Below are positions 13,895-57,580 of a DNA stretch of 64,000 nt, one piece after another (the stretch's first letter is position 1; each line of letters opens with the position of its first letter). Where the stretch lies: positions 256,001 through 320,000 of the IMG/VR virus record IMGVR_UViG_3300037501_000111; one strand, given 5' to 3'. Below the pieces are notes generated by a model. It ran no database searches and was not told where the DNA came from. It saw nothing but the letters and a program-made list of their open reading frames with translations. This stretch comes from a virus (Duplodnaviria; Caudoviricetes). Both the position numbers and the translations under genes were made by a program.

Positions 13895-13983
13895 AAAATC
13901 AATGAATATGCCAAGGGCGCAGCGCACTTACCCTGTTGGCTCCCATTCACGGGCTGCACTTACCCAGGATTGGAGGTTGAACG

Positions 13984-14448
13984 ATGAACAAGAGCCAGGT
14001 TTCCGCCATCCTTGCCCGAGATCCGTACGCCGTGACCAAGGCGATCGTGCTTCTCTTCTCCTACCAGACGGTGGGGGAGCGTCGCACATCGACCACGGTG
14101 GAGGACAACGGGGTCGGTTTCAACGCAGTGCACGCCAAGAACGCCTCTTACTGGGCGAGGTGGGTGCTCGGGGTCGGACTGAACACCCCAGCCCACATCG
14201 TGGACGACAAGGTGCGACACTACCTGACCGGCGACAACTGCCGACAGTACCGCACTCTCACCGGCTCCTACCTGGTGGAGGCACGTCGGGTGGCCGCCCA
14301 CTACTGGCGACAACTCGCCGCAGCGGCCAAGGCTAAGGCTAAGGCAAAGCTCGTGCCAATCGTCGAGCACCGCGGCACCGACATGTCGCACATGCTGCGA
14401 CAGTTCGACCGCTTCCAGGTCCACCCCGGCATCACGCAGCATGTCTGA
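13984..14448 (+). CDS. Phage hypothetical protein (first gene of the GC-rich block)
   Basis: GGAGG RBS, GC-rich codon usage, downstream of a motif copy. Confidence 0.75.
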   Translation: MNKSQVSAILARDPYAVTKAIVLLFSYQTVGERRTSTTVEDNGVGFNAVHAKNASYWARWVLGVGLNTPAHIVDDKVRHYLTGDNCRQYRTLTGSYLVEARRVAAHYWRQLAAAAKAKAKAKLVPIVEHRGTDMSHMLRQFDRFQVHPGITQHV

Positions 14449-14460
14449 CATGTAGGTTGA

Positions 14461-14495
14461 AAGGGGAGGGTGGCGCTAGCCACCCTCCCCTTCTT
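14461..14495 (+). terminator. Intrinsic terminator-like hairpin
   Basis: AAGGGGAGGGTGGC-GCTA-GCCACCCTCCCCTT (14 bp) followed by CTT. Confidence 0.7.
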
Positions 14496-14505
14496 ACGTT
14501 GTGGG

Positions 14506-14540
14506 CGGCATAGCCATTGCAGGGTGCAAAGCATGTGCCA
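14506..14540. promoter_or_regulatory. Face-to-face pair of sigma54-type sites
   Basis: + strand CGGCATAGCCATTGCA 14506-14521, then GGG, then - strand TGGCACATGCTTTGCA 14525-14540. Confidence 0.6.
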
Positions 14541-14633
14541 GGCAAGTTTGCCCCACGTAAACCGCCGCCTCCCATTCACTGCCAGTCCAGACCGAGAAGC
14601 GTCCACACCAACCCGAACGCAGGAGCCACCGCC

Positions 14634-15260
14634 ATGGGTCTCGCTGACATCATCGCGCTCGTTTCGTCTGCTCACGTCGACCCCACCATCGCGCCCGAGA
14701 TTGACGACTCGCCCGAGATCGTCGAGACGGTTATCGGCCGCAATCTCCCCAAGCCTGTGCGAGGCAAGAAGCAGGTCGCTTCCATTCACGACGGCCCCAA
14801 GGTGTTCGGCGTGACCCTGCCCGAACGCAACACGCTGGACGCCAAGAGCTTCCTTCTCGCTGTTCGCAACGCGGGCAAGCGGCCCAACGCCAAGGGAGCC
14901 ATGGTCTTCGACAAGGCCCACGAGCGCAACGATCTCATCTGTGCTATCCACGCTTACGTTGGGTACGATACCCGACGTGATTTCGGCCCGCAGGACACCG
15001 AGGCGCGGGCCAAGGCCCAGCGCGAGCTGAGGGACGGTGTCACCCCTGGTCCCACCAGGGAGGAGAAGCGGAGTGCAGAGCGTAGCCTGTCGGGCTACGT
15101 GGCTGGCATGCCGCGCCCGGCTCAGAAGCTCCTCGCCAATCTCAGGGCTAGGGAGCAAGCGGCAGCCGAGGCGATGATCGACGCCAAGACCCCGGAGGAG
15201 AAGGTAACATACAAGCACCTCCTCGACACCATTCGTAAGGCCATCGACGAGTTGGTCTGA
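14634..15260 (+). CDS. Hypothetical protein
   Basis: AGGAG RBS before the ATG at 14634; GC-rich codon bias. Confidence 0.75.
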   Translation: MGLADIIALVSSAHVDPTIAPEIDDSPEIVETVIGRNLPKPVRGKKQVASIHDGPKVFGVTLPERNTLDAKSFLLAVRNAGKRPNAKGAMVFDKAHERNDLICAIHAYVGYDTRRDFGPQDTEARAKAQRELRDGVTPGPTREEKRSAERSLSGYVAGMPRPAQKLLANLRAREQAAAEAMIDAKTPEEKVTYKHLLDTIRKAIDELV

Positions 15261-15280
15261 CCCACATAAGGCTCACATCC

Positions 15281-15350: not shown

Positions 15351-15366
15351 TGGCATAGCCATTGCA
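15351..15366 (+). promoter_or_regulatory. Sigma54-type site
   Basis: TGGCATAGCCATTGCA followed by GGGTGCA; 22-nt identity with the copy at 14507. Confidence 0.6.
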
Positions 15367-15582
15367 GGGTGCATATGCGCGAGAAGAGGCGCCTTCCATT
15401 CACTGGCAATCGGAGTCGAAAGGTGCAGCAACGGACGGCAGCAAGGCAAGCAAGCCAGCGCACTAGGCGCAAGTCGTTCGCTACTGTATGCGACCACACA
15501 CGGCAGCAAGGTTCATACCAGGGGCTTGACCCCAAGTCGTGAATAGGCGCCTCCCATTCACCGCCAGACAGCGAGGTTGAGC

Positions 15583-15753: not shown

Positions 15754-15934
15754 CGCCGGTCCTACGAACAACGGTTGAGCCAAGCGGCTCCCATTCACGA
15801 CGAAATCGAGTGCGGAAGTTGCAATCGCCCCTCACGGCAGCAGGCACCAACGGTGCGGCACCATCGAGTGCAAGTCGAGAGGGGCGGTTGCCTCCCATTC
15901 ACAACGAACGTCACCACAACGAAGGAGCATCATC

Positions 15935-16120: not shown

Positions 16121-16357
16121 CGCCCTTCGGCCAGCTAGTCGCCCCGTGCAATCCCGAGTCTTCTGTCAGGCTCAAAAGGGACACGGGGCGACTAGCCTAG
16201 TTTCTGTTTCTCCAGCGTCACCAAAAGCGCACGGGGCTACGTGCGGCCTTCCAAGGTTTGAGTGACATAAGGGTTCGACTCCCTATGAATCTGTAGCATC
16301 CCGGCCCGTAGCCTTCCATTCACGGAGGCACGGGCTTGAGGTGTTGGAGGTACAACG

Positions 16358-16618: not shown

Positions 16619-16807
16619 TGTGCCAAGGCGAGGTGTAGGTAAGAAGGCCACTGGTCAAGAGACCCTTGGCAAGATGCTCGTGTCCCGACATGGTGACATG
16701 TGCAAGCGCAGCGCTAATGCGCTGGAAAAGGTGAGTGCCGTCAAGAGCGCGACTCACAGGCTCCCATTCACTGATCATCGATAGCGAAAGACAACGGAGG
16801 TACGAAC

Positions 16808-17107: not shown

Positions 17108-17150
17108 AGCTCCCTGTTTTCCCATTCATCGCAACACGGAGGACAATGGC

Positions 17151-17729: not shown

Positions 17730-18031
17730 GAGCAAGGTGGCATCGCTATTACAGGGTACAATGGGCGTGCCAGCGAGTTCAAATGGTCGAAAACTCACCG
17801 TCGCCACGTGCCCAAGTCGGAACCTCGGAAACGGGGAAGGCGTCAACGCGAGCACAGTGCTCGCTCCCATTCACGGGGCCGAGGAATTCAACCCCGATCT
17901 AATTGGTCTCCTATCTGGTGGAGCCCATGAATCCGGCTCATTTTTTACCCCGACCGCACTTACCGCAGCGCCAAAACACCGCAGCAGTAGGGCGTTTGCA
18001 TACATGTAGCATATATGTAGGGAAAGGTAGT

Positions 18032-18066: not shown

Positions 18067-18278
18067 ACGATACGAACGCAAAAACCGGGCCAAGCGGCCT
18101 CCCATTCACGGCGCATCGCCAGCGAAGGTCGCCGCACCGCAAACGACGCAACGCAAGGTGCAGACATACAGACACGGACCATGTGAGTGGGTATGAGCAA
18201 GAGGGACGGGCTCCCATTCACGGCAAACCGGGCGCCGAAAGCGCCGCAACCCACACACTGACAAGAGGGAAGAAAACA

Positions 18279-18490: not shown

Positions 18491-18950
18491 GGGAGCCGAA
18501 AGGTGGACCGTCCACTCTACCAGCTAACGAGAGGCGCAATGCTGATGGGCCATGAGGTATTGGCTTACTGCTGGCGGCTCCCATTCATTGCTACAAATTC
18601 CCAAGGTGGGGCGGTTGAGGAAAGCTGACTCCCCGCCCCAAACAATCCTATAAATTATACTGGGAAGTTCTCGTCAGCATACCTGTCAAAAGCCGAAGGT
18701 GTACTGCTAGCCAGGTGACATGACTCACCTGCGATCTTTTCGACCAAAGGGTAGGAACAATACAGGCTAGGTAGCTACTTCGGTAGTCCAACTGTATGCC
18801 CCAAGGTATAGGCTGATCTCTACCGATTGAGCGGGGTAGGAGACAGGGCAGGTATGCTGACGAGAGCTGGCTAGTCCAGCATAGCTGGAATCCTTTCAGG
18901 CTAGTCCAGCATAGCTGGAATCCTTTCAGGCTAGTCCAGCTGTACCACCA
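18491..18950 (+). ncRNA. Candidate large structured non-coding RNA
   Basis: No credible ORF; 22-bp long-range stem (18666-18687 with 18847-18868) enclosing several hairpins; further 8-bp closing stems at 18491/18582 and 18607/18640. Confidence 0.55.
18869..18940 (+). repeat. Tandem repeat, 30-nt unit, about 2.4 copies
   Basis: CTAGTCCAGCATAGCTGGAATCCTTTCAGG at 18871 and 18901, partial copy at 18931. Confidence 0.9.
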
Positions 18951-19446
18951 TCCTAGAGATACCTGCGAGGCCTCTATGGAATCCAGACCGAATTACTTAC
19001 AATTCCGAACTGGATCTCGACAACACGTAGGGGGATCTAATAGGGGGTATAGCAGATATACTCCGGAAGTTGGGGGATGTGGTAAGCCTGGGCTGGGATG
19101 ACGGCTATCACACGGTCACGGTCTCTCAGGTTCACAAGGACGGGACGGTGGATGTCTTCCGTCCCTACACGGCCACGGCTGACTTTTCATGTGCAGGGCG
19201 AGAGGAGGGATCTTCCTCAGTCATCTGCTACGTGGGAATCGAAGAGGTCAAGGGAACACCGGGTCATGAAGTGTAAGCAGAGGCTCCCATTCACGGCAAC
19301 CCGAACGCAACGAACGACCAACATAGAACTCGGATTCTGGTTTGGTTTCATTACACTTCGTACAAGTAATCATGCGCAAGATGCAATAGTATGCCCATCT
19401 TGCGCAGAGAAAAACTCCCATTCACGGCATACGGGAAGCGAAAACC

Positions 19447-20079: not shown

Positions 20080-20239
20080 CAAGTCAAGCCCAACCACACA
20101 TAGCAGGAGTGGATTGCAGCCTTAGCTGGTCTAACTATCTGAGACTTTAGTGTCGAGTGGTGGGCGAAAGTCTTGGGGCGAGACTATAAAGCGCCCCAAT
20201 TTCTTCGCTCCCATTCACGACTAGCTCGGCGGTAAAGCC

Positions 20240-20701: not shown

Positions 20702-20836
20702 GGCGGGACGCCTTCGGTAGTTCCCATTCACGGCACATCGCAAACGAAGCTCGGCCCGCTCCCGTCGTCAGATGGGGCGGGCTTGAGGCATTGAAAGAAA
20801 GGGAGCTGTTGCTCCCCATAACACAGGAGCAAAACA

Positions 20837-22040: not shown

Positions 22041-22129
22041 CGAACGAACGGCGCTCCCATTCACGGGGCGGCGGTGACGAAAACCGGGCAATCGCCCCAA
22101 CAAGAAACAAAGCAACAGGAGAATCGAAC

Positions 22130-22733: not shown

Positions 22734-22960
22734 GCGTGGAACGGAATCGGGTTTGGTGTAAGAGGCTGGCCAGTTGACAACGGATCAACGCAGCTAATCC
22801 CAAGTCAAAAACACCCTTTGTTTCCTGATTGGAATAGCGCCACTCTCCCTGACAAAGACAGAGGAACGGTTAGCCAAATGGTCATGGTGAGTACGTTCGG
22901 GAGCATCTAGTGGAACTGACCAACCACTAAGACTATGGGTTCGACTCCCATTCACGGACA
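22734..22960 (+). ncRNA. Candidate structured RNA ending in a tRNA T-arm-like hairpin
   Basis: No ORF; nested stems, a possible pseudoknot (TGGTCA/TGACCA with TAGTGG/CCACTA) and ATGGG-TTCGACT-CCCAT. Confidence 0.4.
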
Positions 22961-24038: not shown

Positions 24039-24201
24039 CCTCACACACGTAGCCATCAGACAGGGTGGAGTTGTATAATCCTTACCTTCTCCTAATAGAC
24101 ACCTCACTGGTACGAACACAACGGAGATATTTGCTCCTATTGTGAGGAACACAATTACCAGTGAGGGGCTCCCATTCACCGCACGAACGAGGAACGAAAC
24201 C

Positions 24202-24594: not shown

Positions 24595-25599
24595 ATGGAC
24601 ATCCATGAGCTGTCGCTAACGATGGGTCGTCCCGTGGCGGTAATGGGTTTGGATGGCGACAACGATAAGCACATTATGGTTGTTGTTTGTTTGAATCCGC
24701 CCGAAGCCTACGTCAACAAAGACAACAAGCATATTGGTCACATCATCGCAGCCAAAGTAGTCCCGGTCAAGGATGCTGCAATCCTTTCGGAACGAGAACA
24801 TACGGCAGTTATCAGGGCACACTTTGCCTTGAAGGTTGCTTTAGAGGGCGCATATGCTGTACCACCTCCTGATCAATACTGCTAATCTCATCTACCTCGC
24901 ATCCTATACTGCCAAAGACATCAAGTTTTTGCGATGGTTGACGATTGCTGGCATCATCCTTCTGATTCCCTACTACCTGTATACTATGGTCTTTAGGAAG
25001 CAACCGCCTCCAAAGAGTCACATACAGATGGTATCTTTTGGCAAGATCCATCTGGTCATCTAGTCCATATTTCTGGATGGTACAACCGAGTCCAAATCAG
25101 CAATCGCTATGACACTCTCTGGTCTTACGCTCAAAATTGAGATGTCCAAGAAGAAGAAGAAGAAACACGAGCCGCCTAAAAAGCATCGTAAGTACATTCT
25201 CATTGAGGGGTATGTACTCAATGAAAAAACTGGTGAGTTGGAACCATACTATAAAAAAGTATATCCTAAACACAAGGTATAGCGGCTCCCATTCACCGCA
25301 CGTCGGGAGCAACCGTCATGAGCGAACTACGAAGGAGCACTATCAGACGTCTCCGAGAAGAACGAAATGAGCTTCAAAAGAGAGTCTACGCTCTCAATGA
25401 CTCTATCAAAGAGTTGCAACTACTAGAAGACAAGGAACAACATCCTTGTACATGTGTAAAGCTCAATGGTGACATTGAGATTTATAACATGCAAGAACAA
25501 GAGCGACGTGGAAGGGTTCCTTTGGACTTAGGATTGGTCTCAGAGTGCCTAAGTGCTCGTAAAGACTGCCCTATCTGTAAGGGAACTGGCAAGCCATGA
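24595..25599 (+). CDS. Block of small hypothetical genes (24595-24885, 25318-25599 and fragments)
   Basis: Contiguous ORFs; 25318 follows the motif at 25286 and has a CxC...CxxC tail. Confidence 0.55.
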
Positions 25600-26674: not shown

Positions 26675-26707
26675 GCTCCCATTCACGGTTCGCGGTTGGA
26701 GGGCGGC

Positions 26708-29870: not shown

Positions 29871-30545
29871 CTCCCATTCACGGCAACCGCTAGCCGATTG
29901 CCGTGAATCGCTTACGAAAACGGGGCACACGAGCCCCATTGAATGACGGAGCTAAATCTCCTCAGAGAGATGACGTAACGGCAGACGATGCCGGCTCCTA
30001 ACTACCTCGTCTCATGACGAGGCAATCTTTTCTTACAATGCGACGAGTAACGTAGATGTGATGAAATCCTTACCAATAATGGAGATCGTCTTCATACTCT
30101 AATACATCATTATATCTTTGTCCTTTGGGTTGGTTCACAACCCTTAGTTCAAGATTGATAAGTCTGTTATCAGACTTATCACCATTGATATGATGTATGT
30201 TTTCGGAGGGTAGAAGTTTTCTCCCTAAATGTTGCTCCATTACATAACGGTGTTCATAATACTGTTGTCCGTTTACATAAATACGTCTATATCCACTAGA
30301 CATTTTGTAGCCGGATCCTTTGGGGCCAATAGTTTTGGTTTCAATATTTATGACAGTTGTACCATCATCTAGCATTCTGTCATAATGTGATTGGCAATAA
30401 CCTTTAGCGTGGTGAGGTCTTTCACAATTTTCTACTTTACAAAGGCGCATTATCTTCTCCTGTTAGTAATATAACAGGGCCAATCGTTAGCTAGCGGGCA
30501 GAAGTTTCTTCTTCCGGGATAGTGTACGATATGTCTCGTCAAAAA
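29871..30545. ncRNA. Candidate structured RNA whose two halves flank an HNH ORF
   Basis: Five or more hairpins in 29876-30060; CCGCTAGC-CGATTG (29887-29900) is complementary to CAATCG-TTA-GCTAGCGG (30481-30497). Confidence 0.45.
30070..30450 (-). mobile_element. HNH homing endonuclease (HNH_3-type)
   Basis: CKVENC, HAKGYCQSHY, YEHRYVMEQHLGR, IHHINGDKSDNRLINL. Confidence 0.9.
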
Positions 30546-31727: not shown

Positions 31728-31779
31728 CCGGCTTTCATTCACGGGACAACGAGAAACGCAACCGACTTCGAGAATCTAG

Positions 31780-35578: not shown

Positions 35579-36164
35579 ATGCCCGACGATAAAAAGACGA
35601 ATGCCAAGGCAAACGATAAACTACGAGTGCCATACGAAATTATGGCGGTCGAGGTTGACAAGTTATACCCGCCGTATTACGTTCTCAAACCGGGTGAAAC
35701 CATCGAGCAACACTTGATGGATATTGAAACATTCATCGAATCATGTGGGTGGACGACAGAAGAATATCTGTCAGAATATATTCACAGGTTCGTTGAAGAG
35801 CTTTTTCCAAATCCAAAGAACATGAACTAACATGAGGTACACCATCGAACAAATCATGGACTTCGTACTCAAAGGTGCTGAGACTTCTCGTGAGGATGCT
35901 AGCTATGGTGAACGCTGGGATGATGGTGGGGCTTCTCGCTTGGAGGATCAGGTTAGATTCTATAAGATGGGTATGAAGAACGAAATTCCTAAGGATTGGG
36001 AAAAGTTCATACCCGCTCCAACTCCAGAACAGGTTCGTAGTGAAAATCACCCATTGCAATTTGAATATTGTGAATGTGGTTGTCATTGCCATTCTGGCAT
36101 CTCTAAAGGGATTGAATATTCCATCTACGACGATTTGAAATCGAAGCTCCCATTCACGGTTTGA
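35579..36164 (+). CDS. Two hypothetical genes (35579-35830, 35832-36164)
   Basis: Adjacent ORFs; the second ends over the motif at 36147. Confidence 0.6.
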
Positions 36165-37115: not shown

Positions 37116-39234
37116 ATGTCTAATCTCAACTATGGTCCGATTTTTATGCCGGGAGACGCCGTGTATTATGCTGGTGAAAAGCACAAGCAGGAACTTTCCA
37201 ACAAGGAAGGTAAGCCCTACAAGGGCTGGATCCATGCCGCCGTTAATGGTCAGCCTGGTACCTTTGTGGTCTGGTTTCCTGACACGAAGGAGCAGGACTC
37301 GTACGTCCTCCATGCTAGTCTTTTGACGAAGGCGCGGCCTCCCAAGACGGAGAGCAAGGAGTGTTCTGGCCCGGTGGTGGAGCACATGCCAATCCGCCGC
37401 AAGGCTTCCGAGGATTGAGATGATACGGTGGATGACTGCCTGGGTATGGTGGGCTACTTGGAGGCTGGCTGTTTCACTGGCTTGTCTTTTGACCATCCAA
37501 AACGTCATTCACCAAGAAGGTTACCGTGTAGAGTTTTCTACTCTTCTGGTAACTGGAGCATGCGCAATCCTGGGAATCAGAATTTGGATGCCTTCTTCTA
37601 AAGAGAAAAGTCCACAAAATGAAAATCGATGAACTCTTCAAGAGTGCATCCAAAGGATGTCAAGTCCCTGGATGCACTCACCAACATGGCGAAGTCGTTC
37701 TATCTTCCGCTTGTCATCCGGTCTTGGTCATCAACCACACGATAAGTAACTGAAACGCAGCACTGCTGCATAGCAAAGAGAAAAAGAATGTATAAGTGTG
37801 AAATCACGGGTAAGTTTAGTCGTCAGGGTCGTCCGGGTCCTCTGGATAAGGAGGGGTATCCTACCCAGATTCCTGGTGAGAAGCTCAACAAGATCGTGGT
37901 GGCGACTCGTGAGCGAATCTATACCAAGCGAGTCAAGAACGAGGAGACTGGCCTGTGGGAAGATGTCGAGATCGGTCGTGGCTGGGAAATTGTTCGTGAG
38001 GTCAATGCCAGTGATGAAGGCGTTGCTCTTTGGAACTCCTGGACTCCCGAGGAGCGCCAGGCGTTTGTCGAGAACTTGGACCGCTGAGCATGGCACTCAC
38101 TAAGCTGTACCAAGTAGTCGAGACTACCAAGGACAAGGTCTTCAAAACCAGGCGCACTCGTATGGCTCTCATGACTTTTCTTTTGGAAAAGAAGGAAGCT
38201 CCCATTCACGGGATGCCGGCACTTCCGCTAGCGGAGCCGGTCTCCGAGCCTATTATGGTAAGGTTCCGGCAGTTCCCGTAGACAGTACCTTTTGGGATAT
38301 ACAAGTGTTCCCTCTCAAGACTATGGACCCTCGCGAACAGCAGCTTCTAAGCGAAATCAAGGAAGCAAACACCGAGCTTCAAAACGCTAGGATGGCCTTT
38401 GCCGAAGCTAAACGTAGACTCATTGATGCAGAATCTAATGTCATCAATGCCAAACTTCATGTAGAAAAACTAACAGAAGAACTACGGGTCATTCGTGTTC
38501 GAGAAGTCATTCCTGACGAACGATATGACCTTTACGATGATGAGAGTTAGGATATGAAGAAATCGGATCATATTACAGCCCTCTTCATAGGTAGTATCTT
38601 TTATTACTACAAAGAAGATAAGCAACTGTCTCAGTTACTTATCAATACCGCATTGTACATTCTGGTAAATTGTCCAGCTAACTTCATAGGAGACGCATAA
38701 TATGCGTTTCTACTCTAAATGGATTGAATTTCATTCTGTTTCTTCATTAGTAAATAATGAATCAATTGATTGGACAAATTTTATCCATCGTTGCAAAATC
38801 ATAATAGAATAAGGTAATACTGTCATATCCTATTATGTTCGATGACCTAAAACATAAGTTCTTGTTTAAGTGTGATGACTGTGCAATGATCTTCTCTGTT
38901 GAGTTAGAAGAAGACGAATTAGAAAGAGTTAACGAGAACAAGTTTTTTCTCGAATGTGCTTGCGGTGGTAAGAGCCATGTATTAAGAGATTGAAATGATT
39001 AAGAAAGCATCTGAAGTTTTATTCTTCTTAGCAAAGCGTGAGAGGAATAAGAGGAATCAATACCATTTTATCAAGAGGTGGTACGGTTATAACCAAGGCT
39101 CCGCTCAAAGAAGGTACGTGTGTTACATATGTAATACTGTTATTGATACCGAAAGTTCAAAGTATCCAATGACTAAGCATGCAGAATGTTCGATAGAAGA
39201 ACATGGTATAGCTCACAAAATAGTGGATTATTAG
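37116..39234 (+). CDS. Block of small hypothetical genes (37116-37418, 37420-37632, 37788-38087, 38305-38550, 38995-39234)
   Basis: ORF track; consistent strand. Confidence 0.6.
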
Positions 39235-41706: not shown

Positions 41707-44323
41707 AGGCAACACCAGTTATTAAAGCCGGCTATGTTATGATGGCCCTCAACTTACTCATAGCTGGATACTTCTGGCTTTTCAGCAAAGAGGATGATGC
41801 CCGTGTTCATGTCGTTATGTTCATGGCCGGTGCCATGCTTTGGATTCTAGTAATCCTAGTTTGGTATAAGGTTAAAGAAACTGAGGATAGGTAAGCTGTG
41901 GAAGAATGGGCTGAGCTAGATGATGACAAATGTGCATGTCATGGTACAGGCTGGGTGAATATAAACGCTGATAAAACAGTTGAATGTCCTATCCATTTTG
42001 TGGGACAGCTTCATCCAGAGACTCAGGCACTACTGTATGATGAACCTAACAGGTTAGCCGAAGAAGAACGTAAAGCTAGACTTCGGTTTCTGATTCGTGA
42101 GACTCGGAATGAAGTAGTAGAACTACAGACAAAACTTAAAGCCAAACAAGAAAATCTAGTCAAGCTGGAGCTTGAACTTATCAATAGAACACCTACAGTT
42201 CGAGCTATCCAGGTCGTAGTTCCAGTTGAGCCTGAGACTATGGAAGAAGATGGGGGTTTCCTATGAGAATCTACGAAGCCATTGACGCAGCCGCTCAAGC
42301 TCTCAAATCTGGGGCTCATCCTAATATTGTTAGACTTGCTCTGTTGAGTGATGGTATTCCGGCAACGAAAGTTGATGTTATCATTGGCTGGGCATCTCAA
42401 ACAAAACCAGATGCAGAAGCATTGGAAGAGGCTGTCCTCGCAGGCTGTCCCGATTGTTCTGGCGCTATGCACCACGCAACCATGAGCGCGTGTATGTTTA
42501 TTGCTAAGAATGGTTGGAACAAATTCACTTCTGAAATGAAGAAACGCGGATAACAATGACTAAGAAAGACTACATTAAAGCTGCTGAACTTGTTCGGGGA
42601 GATCATAAAAAGAATGGAGACATCATGAAGAAAGTACCGCTCACATTTGTATTAGATGAAAGTGATCTCAAAGAAGCCATTACCGAATGGCTAAATGAAC
42701 ACCACAATGATGATGTTGACTGGAGTGAATACTCAATATCATTCAAGACAGAAACAAAGCGGTCACCTGGTAAGGGGTTGCCGGGCGGTATGAATGATGA
42801 CATTGTTACAACTGTCATTACTGCGGTAGCTGTTAAGGATTGAATAGCCTCCCATTCACGAGCGGGCTGTTGCGAAAGGGGCTCCCATGATTAGAATAAG
42901 AACTAAAGTAGGAGATGGACGGGTCTTTACTCTCTACTTTATAGGCAAATGGGTGACCCTAATAAATGATGGCAATAGAACATCATCCATGAATGCTGAG
43001 TCTTTGGCATTAGCCGGAGATAATCATCTTACAGCGTGTGTTAGAATTAAGGAGATTATGGATGACAGAAGAAGAAGACTTACTTCAAAATTACTTAACG
43101 GATCAGGACATCCCTGGGATAACAGCTCAGGAATTTCAGACAGCAGTACTGGGGCTGATCGAGAAGGGATTAATGGTGATGGTGGAAGTAAATGGTGTGA
43201 AGCTATACCGACCAACCCCTCTTCTCCGGAAAATCAAAACACATCTGAATTCGGATCCGGCAACACAGAACTAATCAACAACAATTTCGAGGACAAATGA
43301 GCAATAAGAATCTTCCCATGGACGAGCAACTTTTTATGGCCGAGCAGTATGCGCCAATGCCGGAGGCCATGCTTGCCTTGCAGGCCAAGGATGTTACCCT
43401 AAATAACAAGATGGGCGACTTTCCTGCTGGTTCCAAGTTTGCATTTGCCATTCTTCTTGGCGATGCATCGGCTGTCGTTCTGATTGATGAGAATCAGAAG
43501 GAGCATGCATTCCGACTGAATGTTAGTGTGGGCGAGGCGGTCGATGTGGATGAGTTGAAGGAGCCATATGGTGATGAGTGCGGTCATGATCATTGTGGTC
43601 ATGAGCACTGAAAGGATTTAGGCTACGACTCAGACATGTACACAGACGTGTGTGCATGAATGGGGCTAACGAGTTAACGGTTAGCTTTCGACCTAGTAAG
43701 CTTCTCAACAGTAAACTAGGAAGGGTCAAAGGGGTGCCAACAAACCCATAACCTGTTGGAGCGTAGGCGGTCAAGTCTTATACCTAGCCCCATTTCTTGG
43801 CATTATTGCTGGTGTCAATAATCGTCTCAGGTCTACTACCATATCAGACCGAACATAATCATATGGTCCGTGTTGCTAACTTCTGAAGTAATAGATAGTT
43901 AGGGCCACTCCTGGCCATACCCGTGAGCGTGAGTTTTCGCTTCCGTTTTGAGTACGAAACACATAGGCGTGTGCTTAGATACGAACTTGCAAGCGTATCG
44001 GTGCAGGCGCCTATAAAACGGAGGATCAATTTTACAATTGCAAATAAGATATTAGTTATGGCCGAAAATGAAGCGCAAAGATTGCGTCAAGCCCTCAACC
44101 AATTAGGTAATTAGATATGATTCGTATTCGATATTCTGACGATAGCATTAAAGAATACAAGAGTTTGGACGTTGCTAACTTCATGGTTCTCAATACTCTA
44201 TTCTCTTCTGGTGGTATGATTGCCCCTATTGAAGCCGTAGAGATCATGGGAGTAACTACCAGCGGAGCTACTGTCGAAAGAATGCTCAAGATTAAGCTTG
44301 GAGCAATCGAATCTGACTGGTAG
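41703..44323 (+). CDS. Block of small hypothetical genes (41703-41894, 41898-42266, 42263-42553, 42556-42843, 43297-43611, 43923-44114, 44117-44323)
   Basis: ORF track; ATGA-type junctions. Confidence 0.55.
43612..43920 (+). ncRNA. Candidate structured non-coding RNA
   Basis: About 310-nt intergenic gap; 10-bp stem AATGGGGCTA/TAGCCCCATT (43659/43794) enclosing three hairpins, with further hairpins on both sides. Confidence 0.45.
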
Positions 44324-44422: not shown

Positions 44423-45231
44423 ATGATTCTTGGTGAATACAGTGATCACGCCCAAGTAAGTTCCATTCGATACGAGCAGCCTGAATTGTCTGCTGATGAT
44501 CCGATTTAGTTTTATCCCAAGGGACTATGGACTCCGATTATCGACCCTGATAACATTGCTTATCACTCGATGTTCAAGCCATTCAATCTCAATCAATATC
44601 TGTATCCAAGGCCACCGATTGACATGGGGCTCGTGCCTCCCATTCATGGCGCCCCGCCCAACGTGCTTAGGATGCCGCTCAAGTTTTCCAATACTTCCTA
44701 TGTGATTCCACGTCAACTAGAAGCGCTAGAGCCTGTGATTCGTCGAGTGGCCGAGTATGAGAAATATCTGTGCTCGGATAATAGCATCGATCATGATGAT
44801 ACTTTCTGTCATATCACCTATGATTCATCAACAGTAAATGCTGGAGAGTATCATCGTTTCCCTGGTTTCCATGGTGATGGTATTCAAGGGACGAAACTAA
44901 CACCCAAGGTATTCGTAGAGCATTCATACATTCTTACGAGTGCGCCTCTTACTGAGTTTTGTTTGCAGCCCTTCTTCCTGAAACACTTGGATGAAGCCAA
45001 GCACAACTATTTCTTGGAGTTTGATAGGCAAGCTAAGGAAACTAATGTTTACGGTTCGCTTCCAAACCATCTATACCTAATTGATCCGTACATCGTACCC
45101 CTAAGATCAAACAGGCTACAAACCGCGTGTTCTTGCGTATCGCATATGCATTTACAGAACTTCAGCATCCCAAGAACACAATCAATCCACTCTTCTTTGG
45201 TCAACAGTATGATAATTCGCAAGAAGGTTAA
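44423..45231 (+). CDS. Hypothetical protein (possible Fe/2OG-type HxD), interrupted by a TAG and a frameshift
   Basis: AGGAA RBS, in-frame TAG at 44507, FHGDG; the C-terminus TPKIKQATNRVFLRIAY lies in another frame. Confidence 0.5.
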
Positions 45232-46992: not shown

Positions 46993-47902
46993 TAAGCAAA
47001 CAAAAAATGGTAAAGCTTTTGAGTTTGCATTTGCTAATTCTCTTTACAATAATTGTTCTGAATTTTCAGAAACTGATTTAGTGTCAGATTATACATATAA
47101 TGTGGCACTAAATCATTACAATTCTACAGATATTGATGAACAGAAAAAGTTTAATGAAGCCGCTGACATTGCAGTAGAACATATTATTTCACTTGAGCCT
47201 CAATTAATTACTCCGAAGTCAAATTTAGATCTATTGAAAATAGAACTACTATCAGATACAGCAGGCAAATTAGGAGACGTTAGGGACGTAAAAGCATTTA
47301 GAAAAATGCAAGCATTTGAAATTGGGTTTTCTAATAAAAATAATCACAAAGCGCTCAAAAGTAATAGAATTTCTGATGTTAGTGATTTTGGGAAAGAATG
47401 GGTAAATATATCTTGTTCTTCTCAATTTATATCAGATATAAAACCTATTTTTTCCCGTCTAAGATCTCTTCATCAAACTCATAGTAAATGGTCATCTCTT
47501 ACCGACAAAGAAACTGGTATTTATAAACCAATTTTAGATGCTCTTAAGAAAGAGATTGAATCTCTCAACCAATCGCAAAATATAGCTGTTCCACTTTTCA
47601 AATACTTTTTGGGAAGAAAAGACTTTTACAAAGTTATTAAACAAGATAAATCATCTGAAGTCGAGATTGAGGGGTTTAATGTGAATGGTAATTTATCAAT
47701 TACTAAATTAGCTTTACCCTCTAAAATTGAAAGGTTGCAATTTAAAACAAACTCTAATAATAGGTTGCTTTTAATCTTTGACCAAGATTGGATTCTAGAA
47801 TTTAGAATACACTCCGCATCTTCAATAGTTGAGCCCTCTCTTAAATTTGATGTCCAATTGATTGGTAATCCACCAATTTATAGAAAGGTTCTATCTATCT
47901 AA
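46982..47902 (+). CDS. HaeIII-family-like restriction endonuclease
   Basis: NGKAFE, GDVRD, S-x-K-N-N-H, GRKDFYKVI, FRIHSASS-x-VEPSLKFDVQL. Confidence 0.75.
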   Translation: MGSNKQTKNGKAFEFAFANSLYNNCSEFSETDLVSDYTYNVALNHYNSTDIDEQKKFNEAADIAVEHIISLEPQLITPKSNLDLLKIELLSDTAGKLGDVRDVKAFRKMQAFEIGFSNKNNHKALKSNRISDVSDFGKEWVNISCSSQFISDIKPIFSRLRSLHQTHSKWSSLTDKETGIYKPILDALKKEIESLNQSQNIAVPLFKYFLGRKDFYKVIKQDKSSEVEIEGFNVNGNLSITKLALPSKIERLQFKTNSNNRLLLIFDQDWILEFRIHSASSIVEPSLKFDVQLIGNPPIYRKVLSI

Positions 47903-52973: not shown

Positions 52974-53008
52974 AATGAGGGCTCCCATTCACGGGCACGC
53001 GAACACAC

Positions 53009-54373: not shown

Positions 54374-54375
54374 CC

Positions 54376-54987
54376 ATGATTACATTCGGACTGACTGGTG
54401 GTATTGCGTGCGGTAAAAGTACCGTTACTAAAACATTTAGAGCTGCGGGTATCCCAATGGTAGATGCCGATCTTGTCGCTCGCCAGGTTGTAGAGCCGGG
54501 TACCGCTGGTTTGAATTCTGTTATCAATGCATTTGGTACAGATTTTCTTAAGTCTGATGGTACTCTGAATCGTATTGCTTTGGGGGCGCTTATCTTCGCT
54601 AATGAGGAGGCGCGTCATCTAATTAATAAAATTATGTATCCTCTGATCAGCGAGGAATCGGCCGCGCAAATTAAAAAATTGCACGATGCTGGTGAGGTAC
54701 TGGTAGGGTATGATGCTGCCTTGATCTGTGAGATGGGTAATGATAAAAAATACCGCCCGCTAATTGTTGTGCATTGTCCGCGAGTTACACAAGTCGCTCG
54801 CCTTATGTCGCGAAATTCGTTGACACGCGATGAGGCGATGGCTAGAATTGAAGCTCAGATGCCGGTTGAAGAAAAAATGGCCTTGGCTGATTACCTGATT
54901 GATACTTCGGGTACGATTGAGAATTCAGTTAATCAGACTCAGAAGATTATTGAGAGCCTACAAGATTTAATTCCCAAATCTTTTTAG
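54376..54987 (+). CDS. coaE: Dephospho-CoA kinase
   Basis: FGLTGGIACGKSTV P-loop, VDADLVARQVVEPG, LNRIALG, RLMSRN, RIEAQMP, IDTSGT. Confidence 0.93.
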   Translation: MITFGLTGGIACGKSTVTKTFRAAGIPMVDADLVARQVVEPGTAGLNSVINAFGTDFLKSDGTLNRIALGALIFANEEARHLINKIMYPLISEESAAQIKKLHDAGEVLVGYDAALICEMGNDKKYRPLIVVHCPRVTQVARLMSRNSLTRDEAMARIEAQMPVEEKMALADYLIDTSGTIENSVNQTQKIIESLQDLIPKSF

Positions 54988-55716
54988 ATACTGCTTTGTA
55001 AGATTTCCCAATAGCATTTGCTACTACTTGGAGCGGTTCTCCATAATGATCCTTGAGATATTTTATTTGTTCTTCTGTCCACCATCGAGATGATGGCGTG
55101 TAAAAATCAGAATAAAAAATATCTTTCTTTCGTTTAAGGGCAGAGCCGCCCGAAGCATACATCAAATCACGAATGGCAATAGCTGAATTAGCTTCAGCAT
55201 CTAAAACGTAAGTGATAAACTTACCTTTATTCTTAATTCTAGTTCTACCATGACCAATGATAGTTTTAACATCATCCAAAAAATTAATCGAGCCAGAACA
55301 AATTCCAAACTCGATTGTATTTCTGCGACAAGTAATCCAACCATCTCCATCAAATAGTCCCCTCAAATAATCTCCTAAAAATTGTTGAGGGATATCAAAA
55401 TCTAATCTGATAGTAAAAGTTTTATTTGGAATTACATTGTATTTTTGTAATGATTGAATTAGTTTAACAGAATTAATTCTTAGTCTACAATATTTTCGAT
55501 CCTTCTTTTTAGTAATTTTGATTGGTGCAGTTGGCACAATTTGTTGTTGAATAAATTCTAAACTTCTTTATCTCGCATTTGAAGCTCGATTGACAGAGAA
55601 GTTTGTTGTTTATTAACGCCTCCATCTGCCGAAATAAAACCAAGTATGTAAGCCATTTCATGGCTCCAAGTTTCAAAATAATCCTCTTTTACATCATAAA
55701 TTCTTTTTCTACCCAT
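54947..55716 (-). mobile_element. Free-standing LAGLIDADG homing endonuclease (one-base T-run error near 55560)
   Basis: AYILGFISADG and YLRGLFDGDG; adding one T joins the two track ORFs. Confidence 0.85.
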
Positions 55717-56293
55717 GACCGACTCTAAAATTGAAAAACTTAAAGTTTTGCAAGACCAAGTATCTATTTGTACAAAATGTGATCTCTGTAAAACTCGTAT
55801 ACAAACGGTGTTTGCGAGGGGTAATCCCAATTCATATATAATACTGGTTGGCGAAGCTGCGGGTGAGGAAGAAGATAAATTAGGACTTCCTTTTGTGGGT
55901 AGGTCTGGTAAACTTCTGGATGAAACTATTACTCAGCTTGGGCTTGACCCAACTAAAGATATCTATGTCTGCAATATCATCAAATGCCGACCACCAGGTA
56001 ATAGGCGTCCCGAGGATACAGAAGTAAATTCCTGTATCAGTTATCTGGAAGAACAGATTCAGATTGTATCTCCTAAAGTTATTATAGCTTTAGGAAGTAC
56101 TGCGGTTGATTCTTTGTTACCTGCCAATACATTTGGCATCACGAAGATCCGTGGGAAATTCTTTAAGTACAACAAAGTTCCACTGATTCCTACCTATCAT
56201 CCTAGCTATGTGCTACGCAATGGAAGTAAGGGACCAGTCTATGACGATTTCAAAAGGGATTTGGAATCGGCAATCAACAAATCGAGGGAATAG
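55715..56293 (+). CDS. Family-4 (Fe-S) uracil-DNA glycosylase
   Basis: CTKCDLC, GEAAG-x-x-E, VGRSG, NIIKCRPP-x-NR, TYHPSYV. Confidence 0.92.
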   Translation: MTDSKIEKLKVLQDQVSICTKCDLCKTRIQTVFARGNPNSYIILVGEAAGEEEDKLGLPFVGRSGKLLDETITQLGLDPTKDIYVCNIIKCRPPGNRRPEDTEVNSCISYLEEQIQIVSPKVIIALGSTAVDSLLPANTFGITKIRGKFFKYNKVPLIPTYHPSYVLRNGSKGPVYDDFKRDLESAINKSRE

Positions 56294-56295
56294 AT

Positions 56296-57498
56296 ATGAG
56301 ACTAAAGCAATGGAAAATTGGGGACCGTGTTCAAAAGTTTGAACGAAAAGATGGTAAGGAAGTTATTCATGTAGGCGTAATCAGTGATGTTGTTACTGAA
56401 ACACGCGAGAGGAATAACTATGACCTATATGGTGGTTATGGCTATGATTCCCAGAAGAAAACGACTGAAACTTATGTTAAATCTATCTCTGTTAAATGGG
56501 ATGATGGTACTGAAGAAGTTGGCTTGAACACCTGGGACGTTCAGTCAGAAGACTCTCCGTTGGAGCGCGAGTTTCGTATTAAGGCTGCGGAAGTCATTAG
56601 TATGATTGATGATAAATTATCTATTGCTGCAAAGGCAATTGATGAAGCCGAGGCAATTGCTGAAGAACATGGCATCTCATTCTTTGCTAGCGTGTCTCCG
56701 ATTGGTCAAAGTTATATAGCCGAATCAGCTGATGAAAAATGGCCAGGTATTTCTAAAGAATTTAGAAATGAAGTCACTCATTCATATGGTGAGTACAGTG
56801 GATGGCAACACAGTGACGTATGTTACTAGCATGAAAGTTAGTGAACTAAAGAAATTACTTGCTGATGTTCCTGATGATATGGAAGTAGTTGTGAGTGGTG
56901 GTGATCATTCTTACAATTGTGTGGGTCGTGGTACTGGCATAATTGAAGTTGAATACTTTCCCAAGCATCTGATGACGGCAGATACTAATGAAGTTCAAAA
57001 TTACAGTTGAACATGTCATCAGAGAAGAATATGAGATGGTCTTCGAAGATGAAAACATAATGCGGGCTTTTGATAAAGCCCGCGAGCTAGTGGCCGCCCG
57101 AAACAAAACAGTACGGGCGGGAAAATTTTTTGTTACCAAAATATCAGAAGTAAAGGAAGAATAATATGACTTATCGAGTTCAATATCTCAAGGATCAGAA
57201 TGGTCACTATGTTGGTTGTATTGCTATCAAGGAGAATCTCGCTCACAAAGGAGCTAAGACTATGGTGGTAGAGTATCGAGTCTCTACTGTTAATCCGTCT
57301 GATTCCTTTGATAAGGACGTGGCTCGACAGTTGGCTATTGGTCGGCTCGTGGAAGCTCCTTATACCGTGCGAGTAAAGGCGGGAGCTAATTTGTACGAGA
57401 TTAGCAATGTTATCATGGCAGATATCACTGCTGATTCAACTGCTCCGTCTCGTACTCGTCGAGCAGCTAAGAACTGGCTCCGTAGCAATTCGAAGTAA
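56296..57498 (+). CDS. Hypothetical genes (56296-56829, 57166-57498 and fragments)
   Basis: ORF track. Confidence 0.55.
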
Positions 57499-57580
57499 AC
57501 CTCCCATTCACAGGCCCCGGCAGCCTATAGATACCGGTTCACAAGTAATATAAGACTCATACTCTCTAGGAGAATATACA

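What the first reader, a model, noticed from the sequence alone, without database searches (positions are those of the whole stretch)
13940..57513. 31 co-oriented copies of CTCCCATTCACGG marking gene boundaries, with a density gradient
Seen: 22 copies lie in 13.9-26.7 kb and 9 in 29.8-57.5 kb; by eye none occurs before 13.9 kb or on the minus strand. Many sit within about 15 nt of the upstream stop (17107, 19276, 22040, 26674, 31727, 42843, 52973, 57498) and typically 25-70 nt before an RBS and ATG. There is no shared -35-like element, and flanking pairing differs (3' strand of a stem at 18578, 5' strand at 29871), so the signal is the primary sequence. Some copies come in tandem with no gene between. 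Established analogy: promoter cassettes that mediate modular shuffling in T4-type phages. Inference: a single-block promoter for a phage RNA polymerase or sigma factor, an RNA processing or antitermination site, or a polar DNA-translocation or recombination signal that makes each early gene a cassette.
Basis: partly seen in the sequence, partly recalled or inferred. Interest (0 to 1): 0.87.

Follow-up and report, generated by a model that had tools for sequence, protein, structure and literature searches.

The report
One-way promoter-like word in megaphage
A 13-15 letter DNA word sits in front of dozens of small genes, always pointing the same way, in an uncultured giant freshwater phage and its relatives; it is most likely a phage-specific 'start transcription here' signal, and the relatives show how such a signal changes between lineages and is purged wherever it would misfire.

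Summary
CTCCCATTCACGG occurs 14 times exactly and 31 times at up to 2 mismatches, all on the + strand (chance about 1.2). All copies lie after a GC step from about 40% to 62% at 13.9 kb.

Two syntenic relatives (210 and 481 kb contigs) show the same layout, with strand counts of 54:1 and 59:0. It is the window lineage's form of a clade-wide polar signal with a CCCAT core, found in roughly 430-480 kb uncultured megaphages. Other lineages carry CCCATC-N3-nAACGG or bare CCCATC (360:7, 237:2, 290:3). The bare form is purged from the opposite strand and from both strands of the late-gene zone.

Copies sit just upstream of genes. The modal layout is CCCAT, 25 nt, ATG, in three lineages (24 nt in a fourth). 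Copies without a nearby start codon are conserved equally well.

No phage RNA polymerase was found. A 209-aa sigma-70-family gene marks the clade, but it lies outside this window.

Best reading (0.45): a single-block promoter for host RNA polymerase redirected by a phage factor, possibly that sigma. No RNA data exist to map 5' ends.

RNA-level and DNA-tracking rivals remain open. The scan had noted this same stretch in two overlapping windows, but not on other DNA.

The parts
13480..13939 (.). AT-rich divergent control region just before the first motif copy and the GC step. It includes an invariant 23-nt block (13538-13560) with a TATAAT-like core.
   Evidence: Alignment with G001 and G002; GC profile.
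13809..13824 (+). Sigma-54-type box, TGGCAT-N5-TTGCA.
   Evidence: a separate signal class, not part of the motif.
13879..13894 (+). Sigma-54-type box exactly 61 nt upstream of the first motif copy. The same 61-nt spacing occurs in G001 and G002.
13940..13952 (+). Motif copy 1 (exact), at the onset of the array. Gene start at ATG 13984.
   Evidence: orthologous first copies at G001:145110 and G002:419979.
14569..14581 (+). Motif copy (1 mismatch). Gene 14634-15260.
14779..14791 (+). Motif copy (2 mismatches) inside ORF 14634-15260, with an in-frame GTG 21 nt downstream. Conserved in G002 (420771).
15351..15366 (+). Sigma-54-type box 42 nt upstream of the motif copy at 15393.
15393..15405 (+). 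Motif copy (2 mismatches), in tandem with 15551, no ORF between.
15551..15563 (+). Motif copy (1 mismatch). ATG 15583, 21-nt class.
15788..15800 (+). Motif copy (1 mismatch), in tandem with 15892.
15892..15904 (+). Motif copy (2 mismatches). ATG 15935, 32 nt after the core.
16313..16325 (+). Motif copy (1 mismatch). ATG 16358.
16761..16773 (+). Motif copy (1 mismatch). ATG 16808, 36 nt after the core.
17119..17131 (+). Extra degenerate copy (TTCCCATTCATCG, 3 mismatches). ATG 17151, 21-nt class.
17864..17876 (+). Motif copy (exact). Next start at 17927.
18099..18111 (+). Motif copy (exact), in tandem with 18211.
18211..18223 (+). Motif copy (exact). ATG 18279.
18578..18590 (+). Motif copy (2 mismatches) ahead of an ORF-free stretch of about 400 nt.
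19284..19296 (+). Motif copy (exact), 8 nt after the stop at 19276, in tandem with 19415.
19415..19427 (+). Motif copy (exact). ATG 19447, 21-nt class.
20208..20220 (+). Motif copy (1 mismatch). ATG 20240, 21-nt class; the gene encodes a RadC-like JAB protein.
20721..20733 (+). Motif copy (1 mismatch).
22054..22066 (+). Motif copy (exact), 14 nt after the stop at 22040. ATG 22130.
22945..22957 (+). Motif copy (exact), overlapping a T-arm-like hairpin. ATG 23012.
24169..24181 (+). Motif copy (1 mismatch). ATG 24202. Homology with G001 starts at 24168.
25286..25298 (+). Motif copy (1 mismatch). ATG 25318, 21-nt class.
26676..26688 (+). Motif copy (exact), 2 nt after the stop at 26674. ATG 26708, 21-nt class.
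29871..29883 (+). Motif copy (exact) whose 3' half is the 5' arm of an 11-bp hairpin. No ORF follows. Conserved in G001 (178733) and G002 (446101).
31732..31744 (+). Motif copy (2 mismatches), 5 nt after the stop at 31727.
33862..33874 (+). Motif copy (exact).
36147..36159 (+). Motif copy (exact). ATG 36189.
38199..38211 (+). Motif copy (exact).
42849..42861 (+). Motif copy (1 mismatch), 6 nt after the stop at 42843. ATG 42887. Homology with G001 starts at 42847.
44637..44649 (+). Motif copy (1 mismatch). ATG 44672.
52982..52994 (+). Motif copy (exact), 9 nt after the stop at 52973.
57501..57513 (+). Motif copy (1 mismatch), 3 nt after the stop at 57498. ATG 57581.

Best explanation
The motif is this lineage's version of a clade-wide, strictly one-way transcription-start signal (a single-block promoter) built around CCCAT.

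Proposed mechanism:
- Each copy launches rightward transcription of the small gene or non-coding stretch that follows it.
- In the commonest layout this gives a minimal leader of about 16-21 nt that holds only the ribosome-binding site.
- The enzyme is inferred to be the host RNA polymerase, redirected by a phage-specified factor. The best candidate is the clade's own 209-aa sigma-70-family protein, made from its own host-type promoter.
- In that reading CCCAT is a -10-like element, with its A at about -11.
- Because the word is short and works on its own, it has been purged from the opposite strand and from the late-gene zone in relatives.
- Because every gene carries the same word at its 5' edge, it also marks the edges of gene-content differences between relatives.

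Shown here: the anatomy, polarity, placement, purge, clade distribution and absence of a recognisable phage RNA polymerase.

Inferred: that RNA starts at the motif, which enzyme reads it, and the timing of expression.
For: Polarity and statistics:
- 31:0 in the window; 54:1 and 59:0 in G001 and G002.
- It is the top over-represented 9-mer in both relatives, at 37-83 times expectation, and no second motif is comparable.

Placement:
- 65% of copies across the window, G001 and G002 have an SD-preceded start within 80 nt, against 25-34% of random positions.
- The distance distribution has a sharp lower edge at 21 nt and a long tail, as expected for a minimal leader.
- The leader is unstructured (z +0.09, against -0.8 for control segments).
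- Position +12 is a purine in 133 of 138 copies.

Independence from the start codon:
- The share of exact copies is 34%, 43% and 32% for leaders of up to 40 nt, 41-120 nt, and over 120 nt or none.
- Exact copies precede ORF-free stretches and occur in tandem.

Autonomous, orientation-sensitive action in relatives:
- In G006, CCCATC is 360:7 and is the most over-represented hexamer (6.5 times).
- Its complement ranks 43rd lowest of 4,096 hexamers; the twelve lowest listed all contain GGCC.
- The late zone holds 0 and 0 copies, against 11.5 and 27.3 expected.
- The enrichment is not codon-driven: 215 copies against a median of 8 for same-composition words, with the clearly coding copies spread over all three frames.

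Lineage-specific forms sharing one geometry:
- G005 has T-CCCATC-N3-TAACGG, G011 has CCCATC-GCC-MAACGG, and G007 has CCCATC-N3-AAACR.
- CCCAT to ATG is 25 nt in the window lineage, G005 and G011, and 24 nt in G006.

Enzyme:
- No T7-like, multisubunit or YonO/crAss-type RNA polymerase signature was found.
- One sigma with regions 2, 3.0 and 4 is present in all 34 clade loci.
- The sigma gene has its own conserved sigma-70-like upstream element and lies outside the motif zone.
- The window lineage differs from all others at three residues of the -10-reading helix (A/N/G against W/K/D), which align with sigma-70 T429, W433 and R436.

Precedent: phiEco32 gp36 promoters are a single conserved block with the start 6-8 bp downstream (PMC8948821).
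Against: - No RNA 5' ends could be examined.
- The sigma gene is not in this window. Its presence in the window's own genome is inferred from syntenic relatives.
- Sigma region 4 is highly conserved, yet the motif has no -35 partner.
- G009 and G010 have the same -10-reading helix as the CCCATC lineages but carry CCTACA instead (66:21 and 45:13). So the sigma-motif covariation rests on one split and has one counter-example.
- A C-rich -10 element is unusual.
- In G006 the density reaches 135 copies per 20 kb, more than one per gene, which is high for promoters.
- If these are truly the earliest genes, a phage-made sigma would arrive too late unless it is packaged in the virion or host-type promoters in the control region fire first.
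- The constant CCCAT-to-ATG distance would also suit an RNA-level signal.
Confidence: 0.45

Rival explanations
1. RNA-level 5'-leader element. The word is transcribed from upstream promoters (host-type or sigma-54-type sites in the control region). In the mRNA it then acts as a cleavage or processing site, a stability mark, or a ribosome-recruiting signal, possibly linked to the phage's own ribosomal protein bS21.
For: - Sense-strand only, just upstream of start codons, with a constant CCCAT-to-ATG spacing of 24-25 nt across lineages that differ in Shine-Dalgarno use.
- Canonical terminators are not enriched between genes, so read-through polycistronic RNA is plausible.
- All three complete clade genomes tested encode a bS21 homologue of 110-123 aa.
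- Sigma-54-type boxes lie at preferred distances of 43-47 or 61-67 nt upstream of some copies.
Against: - Motif quality is the same whether or not a start codon is nearby.
- The reverse complement is purged genome-wide in G006 even where only the + strand is coding (1 copy in 0-240 kb), which an mRNA-only signal does not explain.
- The most highly expressed late genes lack the motif entirely.
- bS21 is encoded far from the early zone and would not be present when the first genes are translated.
- The distance distribution has a hard minimum and a long tail, not a symmetric optimum.
Confidence: 0.2
2. Promoter for an unrecognised phage-encoded, possibly virion-delivered, RNA polymerase hidden among the giant family-less proteins (1,300-2,400 aa) of these phages.
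For: - The compact 13-15 nt block with a conserved purine at its 3' edge resembles promoters of phage single-subunit polymerases.
- The array starts abruptly at what looks like the first-expressed region.
- At least nine large proteins have no PHROG or Pfam family.
Against: - No PF00940 or PF00562 match.
- No DxDGD-type loop in ORFs or stop-to-stop frames of G001, G002 and G006.
- No Pol-I/T7 motif B in any ORF of 450 aa or more.
- PHROGs, which I expect (from memory) to include N4-type and phiKZ-type polymerase families, gave nothing.
- The giant ORFans lie beside tail-sheath and baseplate genes, so they are probably structural.
Confidence: 0.1
3. DNA-level polar signal unrelated to transcription start. 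Options: a loading or orientation word for a DNA translocase (genome entry, packaging), a Chi-like recombination word, strand-specific nicking, or single-orientation sites that evade a type III-like restriction enzyme.
For: - Extreme single-strand polarity and near-total purge of the inverse orientation (360:7, 237:2, 290:3) resemble KOPS, Chi, or T7's single-orientation EcoP15I sites; that comparison is from my own knowledge.
- Abrupt onset with a density gradient.
- Lineage-specific 6-mers are typical of restriction specificities.
Against: - In the window lineage essentially every copy lies at a gene's 5' edge with a defined distance to the ATG, which none of these signals requires.
- Forward copies are also purged from the late zone (0 against 11.5 expected), which would be harmless for restriction evasion.
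- 22- to 27-fold local enrichment is not explained by avoidance.
Confidence: 0.12
4. Primarily a recombination cassette boundary, like T4-type PeSLs. The repeated word exists because it mediates shuffling of small genes, with expression secondary.
For: - 9 of 74 homology-block starts against G001 and G002 fall within -12 to +3 nt of a motif start, seven of them within 2 nt, against 1.2% expected.
- The region is rich in ORFan genes.
Against: - 13 nt is short for homologous exchange.
- There is no partner stem-loop or sigma-70 promoter as in PeSLs (PMC2839356).
- Block ends do not coincide with the next motif (4 of 74).
- The breakpoint pattern is expected anyway if an invariant word sits at each gene's 5' edge.
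- It does not explain the strand and late-zone purge in relatives.
Confidence: 0.05

Closest known systems
Single-block promoters of phage-encoded sigma factors (phiEco32 gp36: tAATGTAtA; T4 late promoters TATAAATA with gp55)
   Same: One short conserved block with no -35 partner, placed just upstream of genes, used by host RNA polymerase carrying a phage sigma. In phiEco32 the start lies 6-8 bp downstream (PMC8948821). The T4 gp55 details are from my own knowledge.
   Different: - The word here is C-rich (CCCAT core) and longer (13-15 nt, or bipartite CCCATC-N3-nAACGG in relatives).
- There are dozens to hundreds of copies, concentrated in a GC-rich, ORFan-rich zone and not at late genes.
- The candidate sigma keeps region 4, unlike gp36.
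- The sigma-motif link is unproven.
T7-type single-subunit RNA polymerase promoters
   Same: A compact, highly conserved, strictly oriented block directly before genes, lineage-specific in sequence, with a conserved purine at the 3' edge that could be +1.
   Different: No single-subunit polymerase gene or motif was found in the relatives examined. The block is shorter than the roughly 20-bp T7-group promoters (my own knowledge).
PeSL promoter-terminator cassettes of T4-type phages (Arbiol et al. 2010, PMC2839356; Comeau et al. 2014, PMC4122927)
   Same: Repeated regulatory words in hyperplastic regions full of small ORFan genes. The words coincide with gene-content breakpoints between relatives.
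   Different: PeSLs are sigma-70-like promoters plus terminator stem-loops. Here there are no -35/-10 hexamers and no partner hairpin.
Early promoters of jumbo phages with their own multisubunit polymerases (phiKZ, AR9; PMC5312081 listed)
   Same: A giant phage with many co-oriented short promoters in front of early genes.
   Different: No beta/beta'-like genes and no DxDGD loop here. The word is GC-rich.
Single-orientation type III restriction sites in T7, and polar chromosomal words (Chi, KOPS)
   Same: A short asymmetric word present on one strand only.
   Different: Those words are not tied to gene starts, not enriched 20-fold locally, and not purged in the permitted orientation from part of the genome. 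The comparison is from my own knowledge.

Membership tests
Phage-sigma single-block (-10-only) promoter | Conserved single block with no -35 element | tested here: met
   No information upstream of -2 in 138 copies.
Phage-sigma single-block (-10-only) promoter | Phage encodes a sigma-70-family factor | tested here: inconclusive
   Present in G001, G002 and 32 other clade loci, but not in this window. The rest of the window's own genome could not be searched.
Phage-sigma single-block (-10-only) promoter | Transcripts start a few bp downstream of the block | not testable with these tools
   No RNA run is listed for this DNA. The only indirect hints are a purine at +12 in 133 of 138 copies and the minimal-leader geometry.
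Phage-sigma single-block (-10-only) promoter | Sigma specificity matches the block (covariation or biochemistry) | tested here: inconclusive
   One supporting split: A/N/G against W/K/D in region 2.3-2.4 tracks CCCATTCAC against CCCATC. One counter-example: G009 and G010 have the W/K/D sigma but CCTACA.
T7-type single-subunit RNAP promoter | Genome encodes a T7-like RNA polymerase | tested here: not met
   No PF00940 match, although the control was uninformative. No Rx3Kx6-8YG motif in any ORF of 450 aa or more in G001, G002 or G006.
T7-type single-subunit RNAP promoter | Conserved block of about 19-23 bp spanning +1 | tested here: inconclusive
   The block is 13-15 nt; a conserved purine lies at its 3' edge.
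Jumbo-phage multisubunit RNAP promoter (phiKZ/AR9 type) | Phage beta/beta'-like subunits with a DxDGD catalytic loop | tested here: not met
   No PF00562 match. No conserved DxDGD-type loop. PHROGs and Pfam are silent on the large proteins.
PeSL cassette (T4-type) | Strong sigma-70-like -35/-10 promoter | tested here: not met
   No hexamer pair in the logo. Sigma-70-like sites are not enriched (24 against 16.5 +/- 4.5).
PeSL cassette (T4-type) | Adjacent terminator stem-loop | tested here: not met
   Upstream 58 nt has mean z -0.67, against -0.81 for control segments. Terminator-like sites number 21 against 18.2 +/- 4.5.
PeSL cassette (T4-type) | Lies at gene gain/loss breakpoints between relatives | tested here: met
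   12% of homology-block starts fall at the motif's 5' edge, against 1.2% expected.
Polar DNA-tracking word (Chi/KOPS/SRS) or type III site evasion | Strong orientation bias | tested here: met
   31:0, 54:1, 59:0, 360:7, 237:2 and 290:3.
Polar DNA-tracking word (Chi/KOPS/SRS) or type III site evasion | Placement independent of gene starts; no purge of the allowed orientation | tested here: not met
   Copies sit at gene 5' edges. The forward word is absent from the G006 late zone (0 against 11.5 expected).
ops/RfaH-type elongation signal | Cognate NusG-family factor encoded | tested here: not met
   No PF02357 match in G001, G002, G005 or G006; the control rang in 10 genomes. A host factor is not excluded.
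Sigma-54 promoter | GG-N10-GC (-24/-12) in the motif itself | tested here: not met
   The motif has no such pattern. Separate TGGCAY-N5-TTGCW boxes exist upstream of a few copies. No phage sigma-54 or activator was found.

The most novel reading that the evidence does not exclude
A whole clade of roughly 450-kb uncultured freshwater megaphages runs its early or accessory programme from a very short, autonomous, strictly one-way promoter word (CCCAT core; bare hexamer in some lineages).

- The word is read by host RNA polymerase reprogrammed by the phages' own sigma-like factor.
- It is potent enough that selection has erased it from the opposite strand and from the late-gene third of the genome.
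- It drifts between lineages: CCCATC-N3-AACGG, then CCCATTCACGG, then CCTACA.
- The dense inward-pointing array at a sharp GC step may also help pull or commit the giant genome during entry, as transcription does for T7.
Probability: 0.25. Interest if true: 0.75.

Novelty: new variant of a known kind. Interest (0 to 1): 0.6.

Why it matters
If the promoter reading is right, three things follow.

- Transcription map: it gives one for a clade of giant uncultured phages that has no cultured relative, namely which genes form the motif-driven programme and where that programme starts.
- Natural experiment: the lineages show how a promoter word and its reader change, from bipartite to contracted to bare hexamer to a different hexamer. 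The genome-wide purge shows how strongly a short autonomous promoter constrains coding sequence.
- Practical use: the word is a cheap marker for finding and orienting members of this clade in metagenomes, and for spotting CheckV 'provirus' calls that may be caused by the GC step.

It also raises a testable question: why is the first-expressed zone 15-25 GC points richer than the rest of the genome in every lineage?

Tried and rejected
- RNA evidence: no RNA holder was listed in either run search, so no reads were laid.
- Close DNA relatives among deposited phages: none. The sigma has no homologue there. The replicase is about 30% identical to DnaE-like polymerases.
- Literature search for the word and its complement: only unrelated primer matches.
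- Whole genome of the window: not held.
- Phage RNA polymerase hunt, all negative: PF00940, PF00562, PHROGs and Pfam on 15 large proteins, DxDGD and relaxed D-x-D-x-D scans, and T7 motif B.
- Sigma-54 machinery in the phages: none.
- NusG/RfaH-like factor: none.
- A second, late-promoter motif upstream of genes in the motif-free zone: nothing convincing with a crude k-mer test.
- The sigma gene's upstream element as a general promoter class: it is unique to that gene.
- Terminator or hairpin partner for the motif: not enriched.
- Rfam: only the three tRNAs.
- Codon usage as the cause of the strand bias in G006: rejected.
- G007's CCCATC-ATG as leaderless starts: rejected, because the ORFs are 1-60 aa and the ATG is the spacer of the bipartite word.
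- The motif as the 3' end of a tRNA (T-stem plus acceptor): considered because 22945 overlaps a T-arm-like hairpin. ARAGORN and Rfam find no tRNA there and other copies lack the arm.
- Complementarity of CUCCCAU to 16S rRNA helix 44: recalled from memory only. Judged unlikely because that segment is paired in the ribosome. Not tested.

Full report
**1. The observation**

CTCCCATTCACGG occurs 14 times exactly and 31 times with up to 2 mismatches. Every copy is on the + strand and none lies before 13,940. Dinucleotide-preserving shuffles give 0 and 1.19.

Aligning the copies gives a block of about 15 nt, (G)(G/C)CTCCCATTCAC(G)(G/A)(c). Nothing is conserved from -45 to -3, and the downstream stretch is T-poor. 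At least one further degenerate copy exists at 17119-17131.

The array begins exactly where GC jumps from about 40% to 62%. GC then declines to about 40% by 40 kb, in parallel with motif density.

**2. What the window is**

It is part of a large uncultured myovirus from freshwater metagenomes. It carries an RF2-like release factor, an RNA ligase, a methylase/HaeIII-like nuclease pair, tRNAs and many ORFans. No near-identical DNA match was found among deposited phages; protein-level matches were only distant (about 40% identity). Offsets in earlier notes show the contig continues on both sides.

**3. Relatives**

A scan of viral contigs for the 14-mer found two large contigs with many same-strand copies. 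Whole-record scans gave 54:1 in G001 (210 kb) and 59:0 in G002 (481 kb). Both show an abrupt onset, a dense first 15 kb or so, then a thinning tail.

Both are syntenic with the window at 65-80% nucleotide identity. Both have the same GC step at the onset and a conserved control region just before the first copy. The word is the most over-represented 9-mer in both genomes by a wide margin.

**4. Placement**

Across the three genomes, 65% of copies have an SD-preceded start within 80 nt, against 25-34% of random positions. The distances have a sharp mode at exactly 21 nt from the 11-mer core to the ATG: 5, 11 and 13 copies. Few are shorter and there is a long tail.

The leader is less structured than control segments, and there is no consistent upstream hairpin. 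Neither sigma-70-like sites nor canonical terminators are enriched. Position +12 is a purine in 133 of 138 copies.

Copies with long leaders or no downstream start are as well conserved as the 21-nt class. Some precede ORF-free stretches, and the copy at 29871 is conserved in both relatives.

**5. The clade and its variants**

Both relatives encode a 209-aa sigma-70-family protein with regions 2, 3.0 and 4. Its homologues (64-100% identity) mark 34 viral contigs, several of 430-480 kb, of which four are rated 97-100% complete and one has terminal repeats.

The exact window word is absent from the more distant members. An unbiased k-mer scan of the complete G006 showed the same architecture with a different word, CCCATC:

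- 360 forward against 7 reverse copies.
- 65, 135 and 31 copies in the three 20-kb bins of the GC-rich zone.
- A tail over the next 240 kb, and none on either strand across 160 kb of late genes.
- It is the most over-represented hexamer (6.5 times). Its complement ranks 43rd lowest of 4,096; the twelve lowest listed all contain GGCC. The late-zone absence compares with 11.5 and 27.3 expected.
- The enrichment is not a codon effect.

Other lineages:

- G003 and G004 behave alike: 237:2 and 3:290, the second contig being inverted.
- G005 carries T-CCCATC-N3-TAACGG (83:1 in 38 kb), mostly without a clear Shine-Dalgarno.
- G011 carries CCCATC-GCC-(A/C)AACGG.
- G007 carries CCCATC-N3-AAAC(A/G).
- G009 and G010 instead carry CCTACA, with weaker polarity.

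The modal distance from CCCAT to the ATG is 25 nt in the window lineage, G005 and G011, and 24 nt in G006. The window's contiguous word therefore looks like a contracted derivative of a bipartite CCCATC-N3-nAACGG signal.

**6. Who could read it**

No T7-like, multisubunit, YonO-type or crAss-type polymerase signature was found in G001, G002 or G006. There is also no sigma-54, no sigma-54 activator and no NusG-family gene. Host RNA polymerase is thus the likely enzyme.

The sigma gene lies outside the motif zone and has its own conserved sigma-70-like upstream element, which is unique in the genome. That would allow sigma to be made first.

In the sigma alignment, the window lineage has FFAWAHNYIG where all others have FFWWAHKYID. 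By the alignment to SigA, the three switched residues correspond to sigma-70 T429, W433 and R436, in the helix that reads the upstream edge of the -10 element. This fits sigma reading the word, but it is a single split. G009 and G010 keep the W/K/D helix while carrying CCTACA. The sigma assignment is therefore a candidate, not a result.

**7. Why a promoter is the best reading**

- A short word that works alone and only in one direction explains the purge from the opposite strand, where it would drive antisense RNA.
- It also explains the purge from the late zone, where it would cause premature expression.
- It explains the gene-edge placement, the tandem and ORF-less copies, and the independence of motif quality from leader length.
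- The hard lower limit of the spacing, followed by a tail, is what compaction against a minimal leader would give.
- Single-block promoters read by a phage sigma are documented for phiEco32.

**8. Rivals**

- RNA-level leader element. It is favoured by the constant distance to the ATG and by the bS21 homologue in all complete genomes tested. It does not explain the reverse-strand purge or the equal conservation of copies far from any start.
- DNA-tracking or restriction-evasion word. It explains the polarity, but not the gene-edge placement, the local 20-fold enrichment, or the loss of forward copies from the late zone.
- PeSL-like recombination cassette. Breakpoints do coincide with the word's 5' edge. 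The anatomy differs from PeSLs, and the coincidence follows from any invariant word at gene starts.

**9. Limits**

- No RNA data exist for this DNA in the runs served.
- The sigma and bS21 genes are not in the window, and the window's whole genome is not held.
- Gene starts were called with a simple SD-plus-ORF heuristic.
- 'Early' is inferred from gene content and position only.

**10. Verdict**

This is a real, highly non-random, clade-conserved regulatory word. It is most likely a phage-specific single-block promoter (0.45 for host polymerase plus a phage factor, and a further 0.10 for a cryptic phage polymerase). It is a new variant of a known kind, with unusually clear evolutionary and genome-wide selection signatures.

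Noticed in passing
window 13,000-40,000; G001 about 140 kb; G002 about 420 kb; G006 about 411 kb; G005 about 434 kb: There is a sharp GC step exactly at the motif onset: about 40% to 62% in the window (35% further upstream), 36% to 56% in G001, 42% to 57% in G002, 33% to 58% in G006 and 30% to 43% in G005. GC then declines slowly over tens of kb. It is conserved in every lineage, whatever the absolute GC. It may explain why IMG/VR labels several of these contigs 'provirus'.
   Followed up: partly
window 13809, 13879, 15351 (+), 14540 (-); G001 144955-145732; G002 419811-424418; G006 400-452 kb: Sigma-54-type boxes (TGGCAY-N5-TTGCW) cluster in the first few kb of the zone in all genomes. One box lies exactly 61 nt before the first motif copy in three genomes, and others lie at 43-47 or 61-67 nt before a copy. 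Some are halves of palindromes. The phages encode no sigma-54 or activator.
   Followed up: partly
window 13538-13560: An invariant 23-nt block (GTTTATAATGCGATAAGATGCTT-like) lies in the control region, together with a conserved CCCC..GGGAGG hairpin at about 13,708-13,726. These are candidate host-type promoter or operator sites for the whole zone.
   Followed up: no
window 14779-14814; G002:420771: An internal motif copy lies inside the 208-aa ORF, with an in-frame GTG exactly 21 nt downstream. It is conserved in G002 and may give a shorter protein isoform from an internal start.
   Followed up: no
window 29871-29910: The motif's 3' half forms the 5' arm of an 11-bp hairpin (z -3.8), ahead of an ORF-free stretch and an antisense HNH gene (30070-30450). 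The copy is conserved in G001 and G002. It is a candidate non-coding RNA start.
   Followed up: partly
window 22934-22950: A T-arm-like hairpin (5-bp stem, 7-nt TTCGACT loop) overlaps the 5' half of the motif copy at 22945. Neither ARAGORN nor Rfam calls a tRNA there.
   Followed up: partly
window 3716-4810: A phage-encoded class-I release factor (RF2-like; about 40% identical to bacterial prfB). It sits within an array of small co-oriented genes in the low-GC part of the window.
   Followed up: no
window 46189-47902; G006 whole genome: A D12-class adenine methylase lies next to a HaeIII-like nuclease in the window. The distant relative G006 has almost no GGCC (21 sites in 452 kb, with many GGCC-containing hexamers at zero), while the window lineage does not avoid GGCC (166 in 64 kb).
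   Followed up: partly
G002:192482-192640; G005:231239-231397; G006:227514-227672: Ribosomal protein bS21 homologues (open frames of 110-123 aa, about twice the length of the 55-position Pfam domain) occur in all three complete clade genomes tested.
   Followed up: partly
G001 7-60 kb; G002 265-391 kb: At least nine proteins of 1,000-2,400 aa have no PHROG or Pfam family. Three carry an E1-FCCH-like domain. They lie beside tail-sheath and baseplate genes.
   Followed up: partly
L154-L187, 55-60 nt upstream of the sigma start codon: A conserved TATCAATAAT-N2-4-(A)GTATA element precedes the sigma gene in all clade members and occurs nowhere else in the genomes.
   Followed up: partly
G009:161-204 kb; G010:185-203 kb: This sub-lineage has CCTACA (66:21 and 45:13) instead of CCCATC, starting at its GC step. 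Several copies form the 5' arm of hairpins (CCTACACCCTGCC...GGGCAGGAGTAGG) that are followed by a sigma-54-type box, a layout closer to a terminator-promoter cassette.
   Followed up: partly
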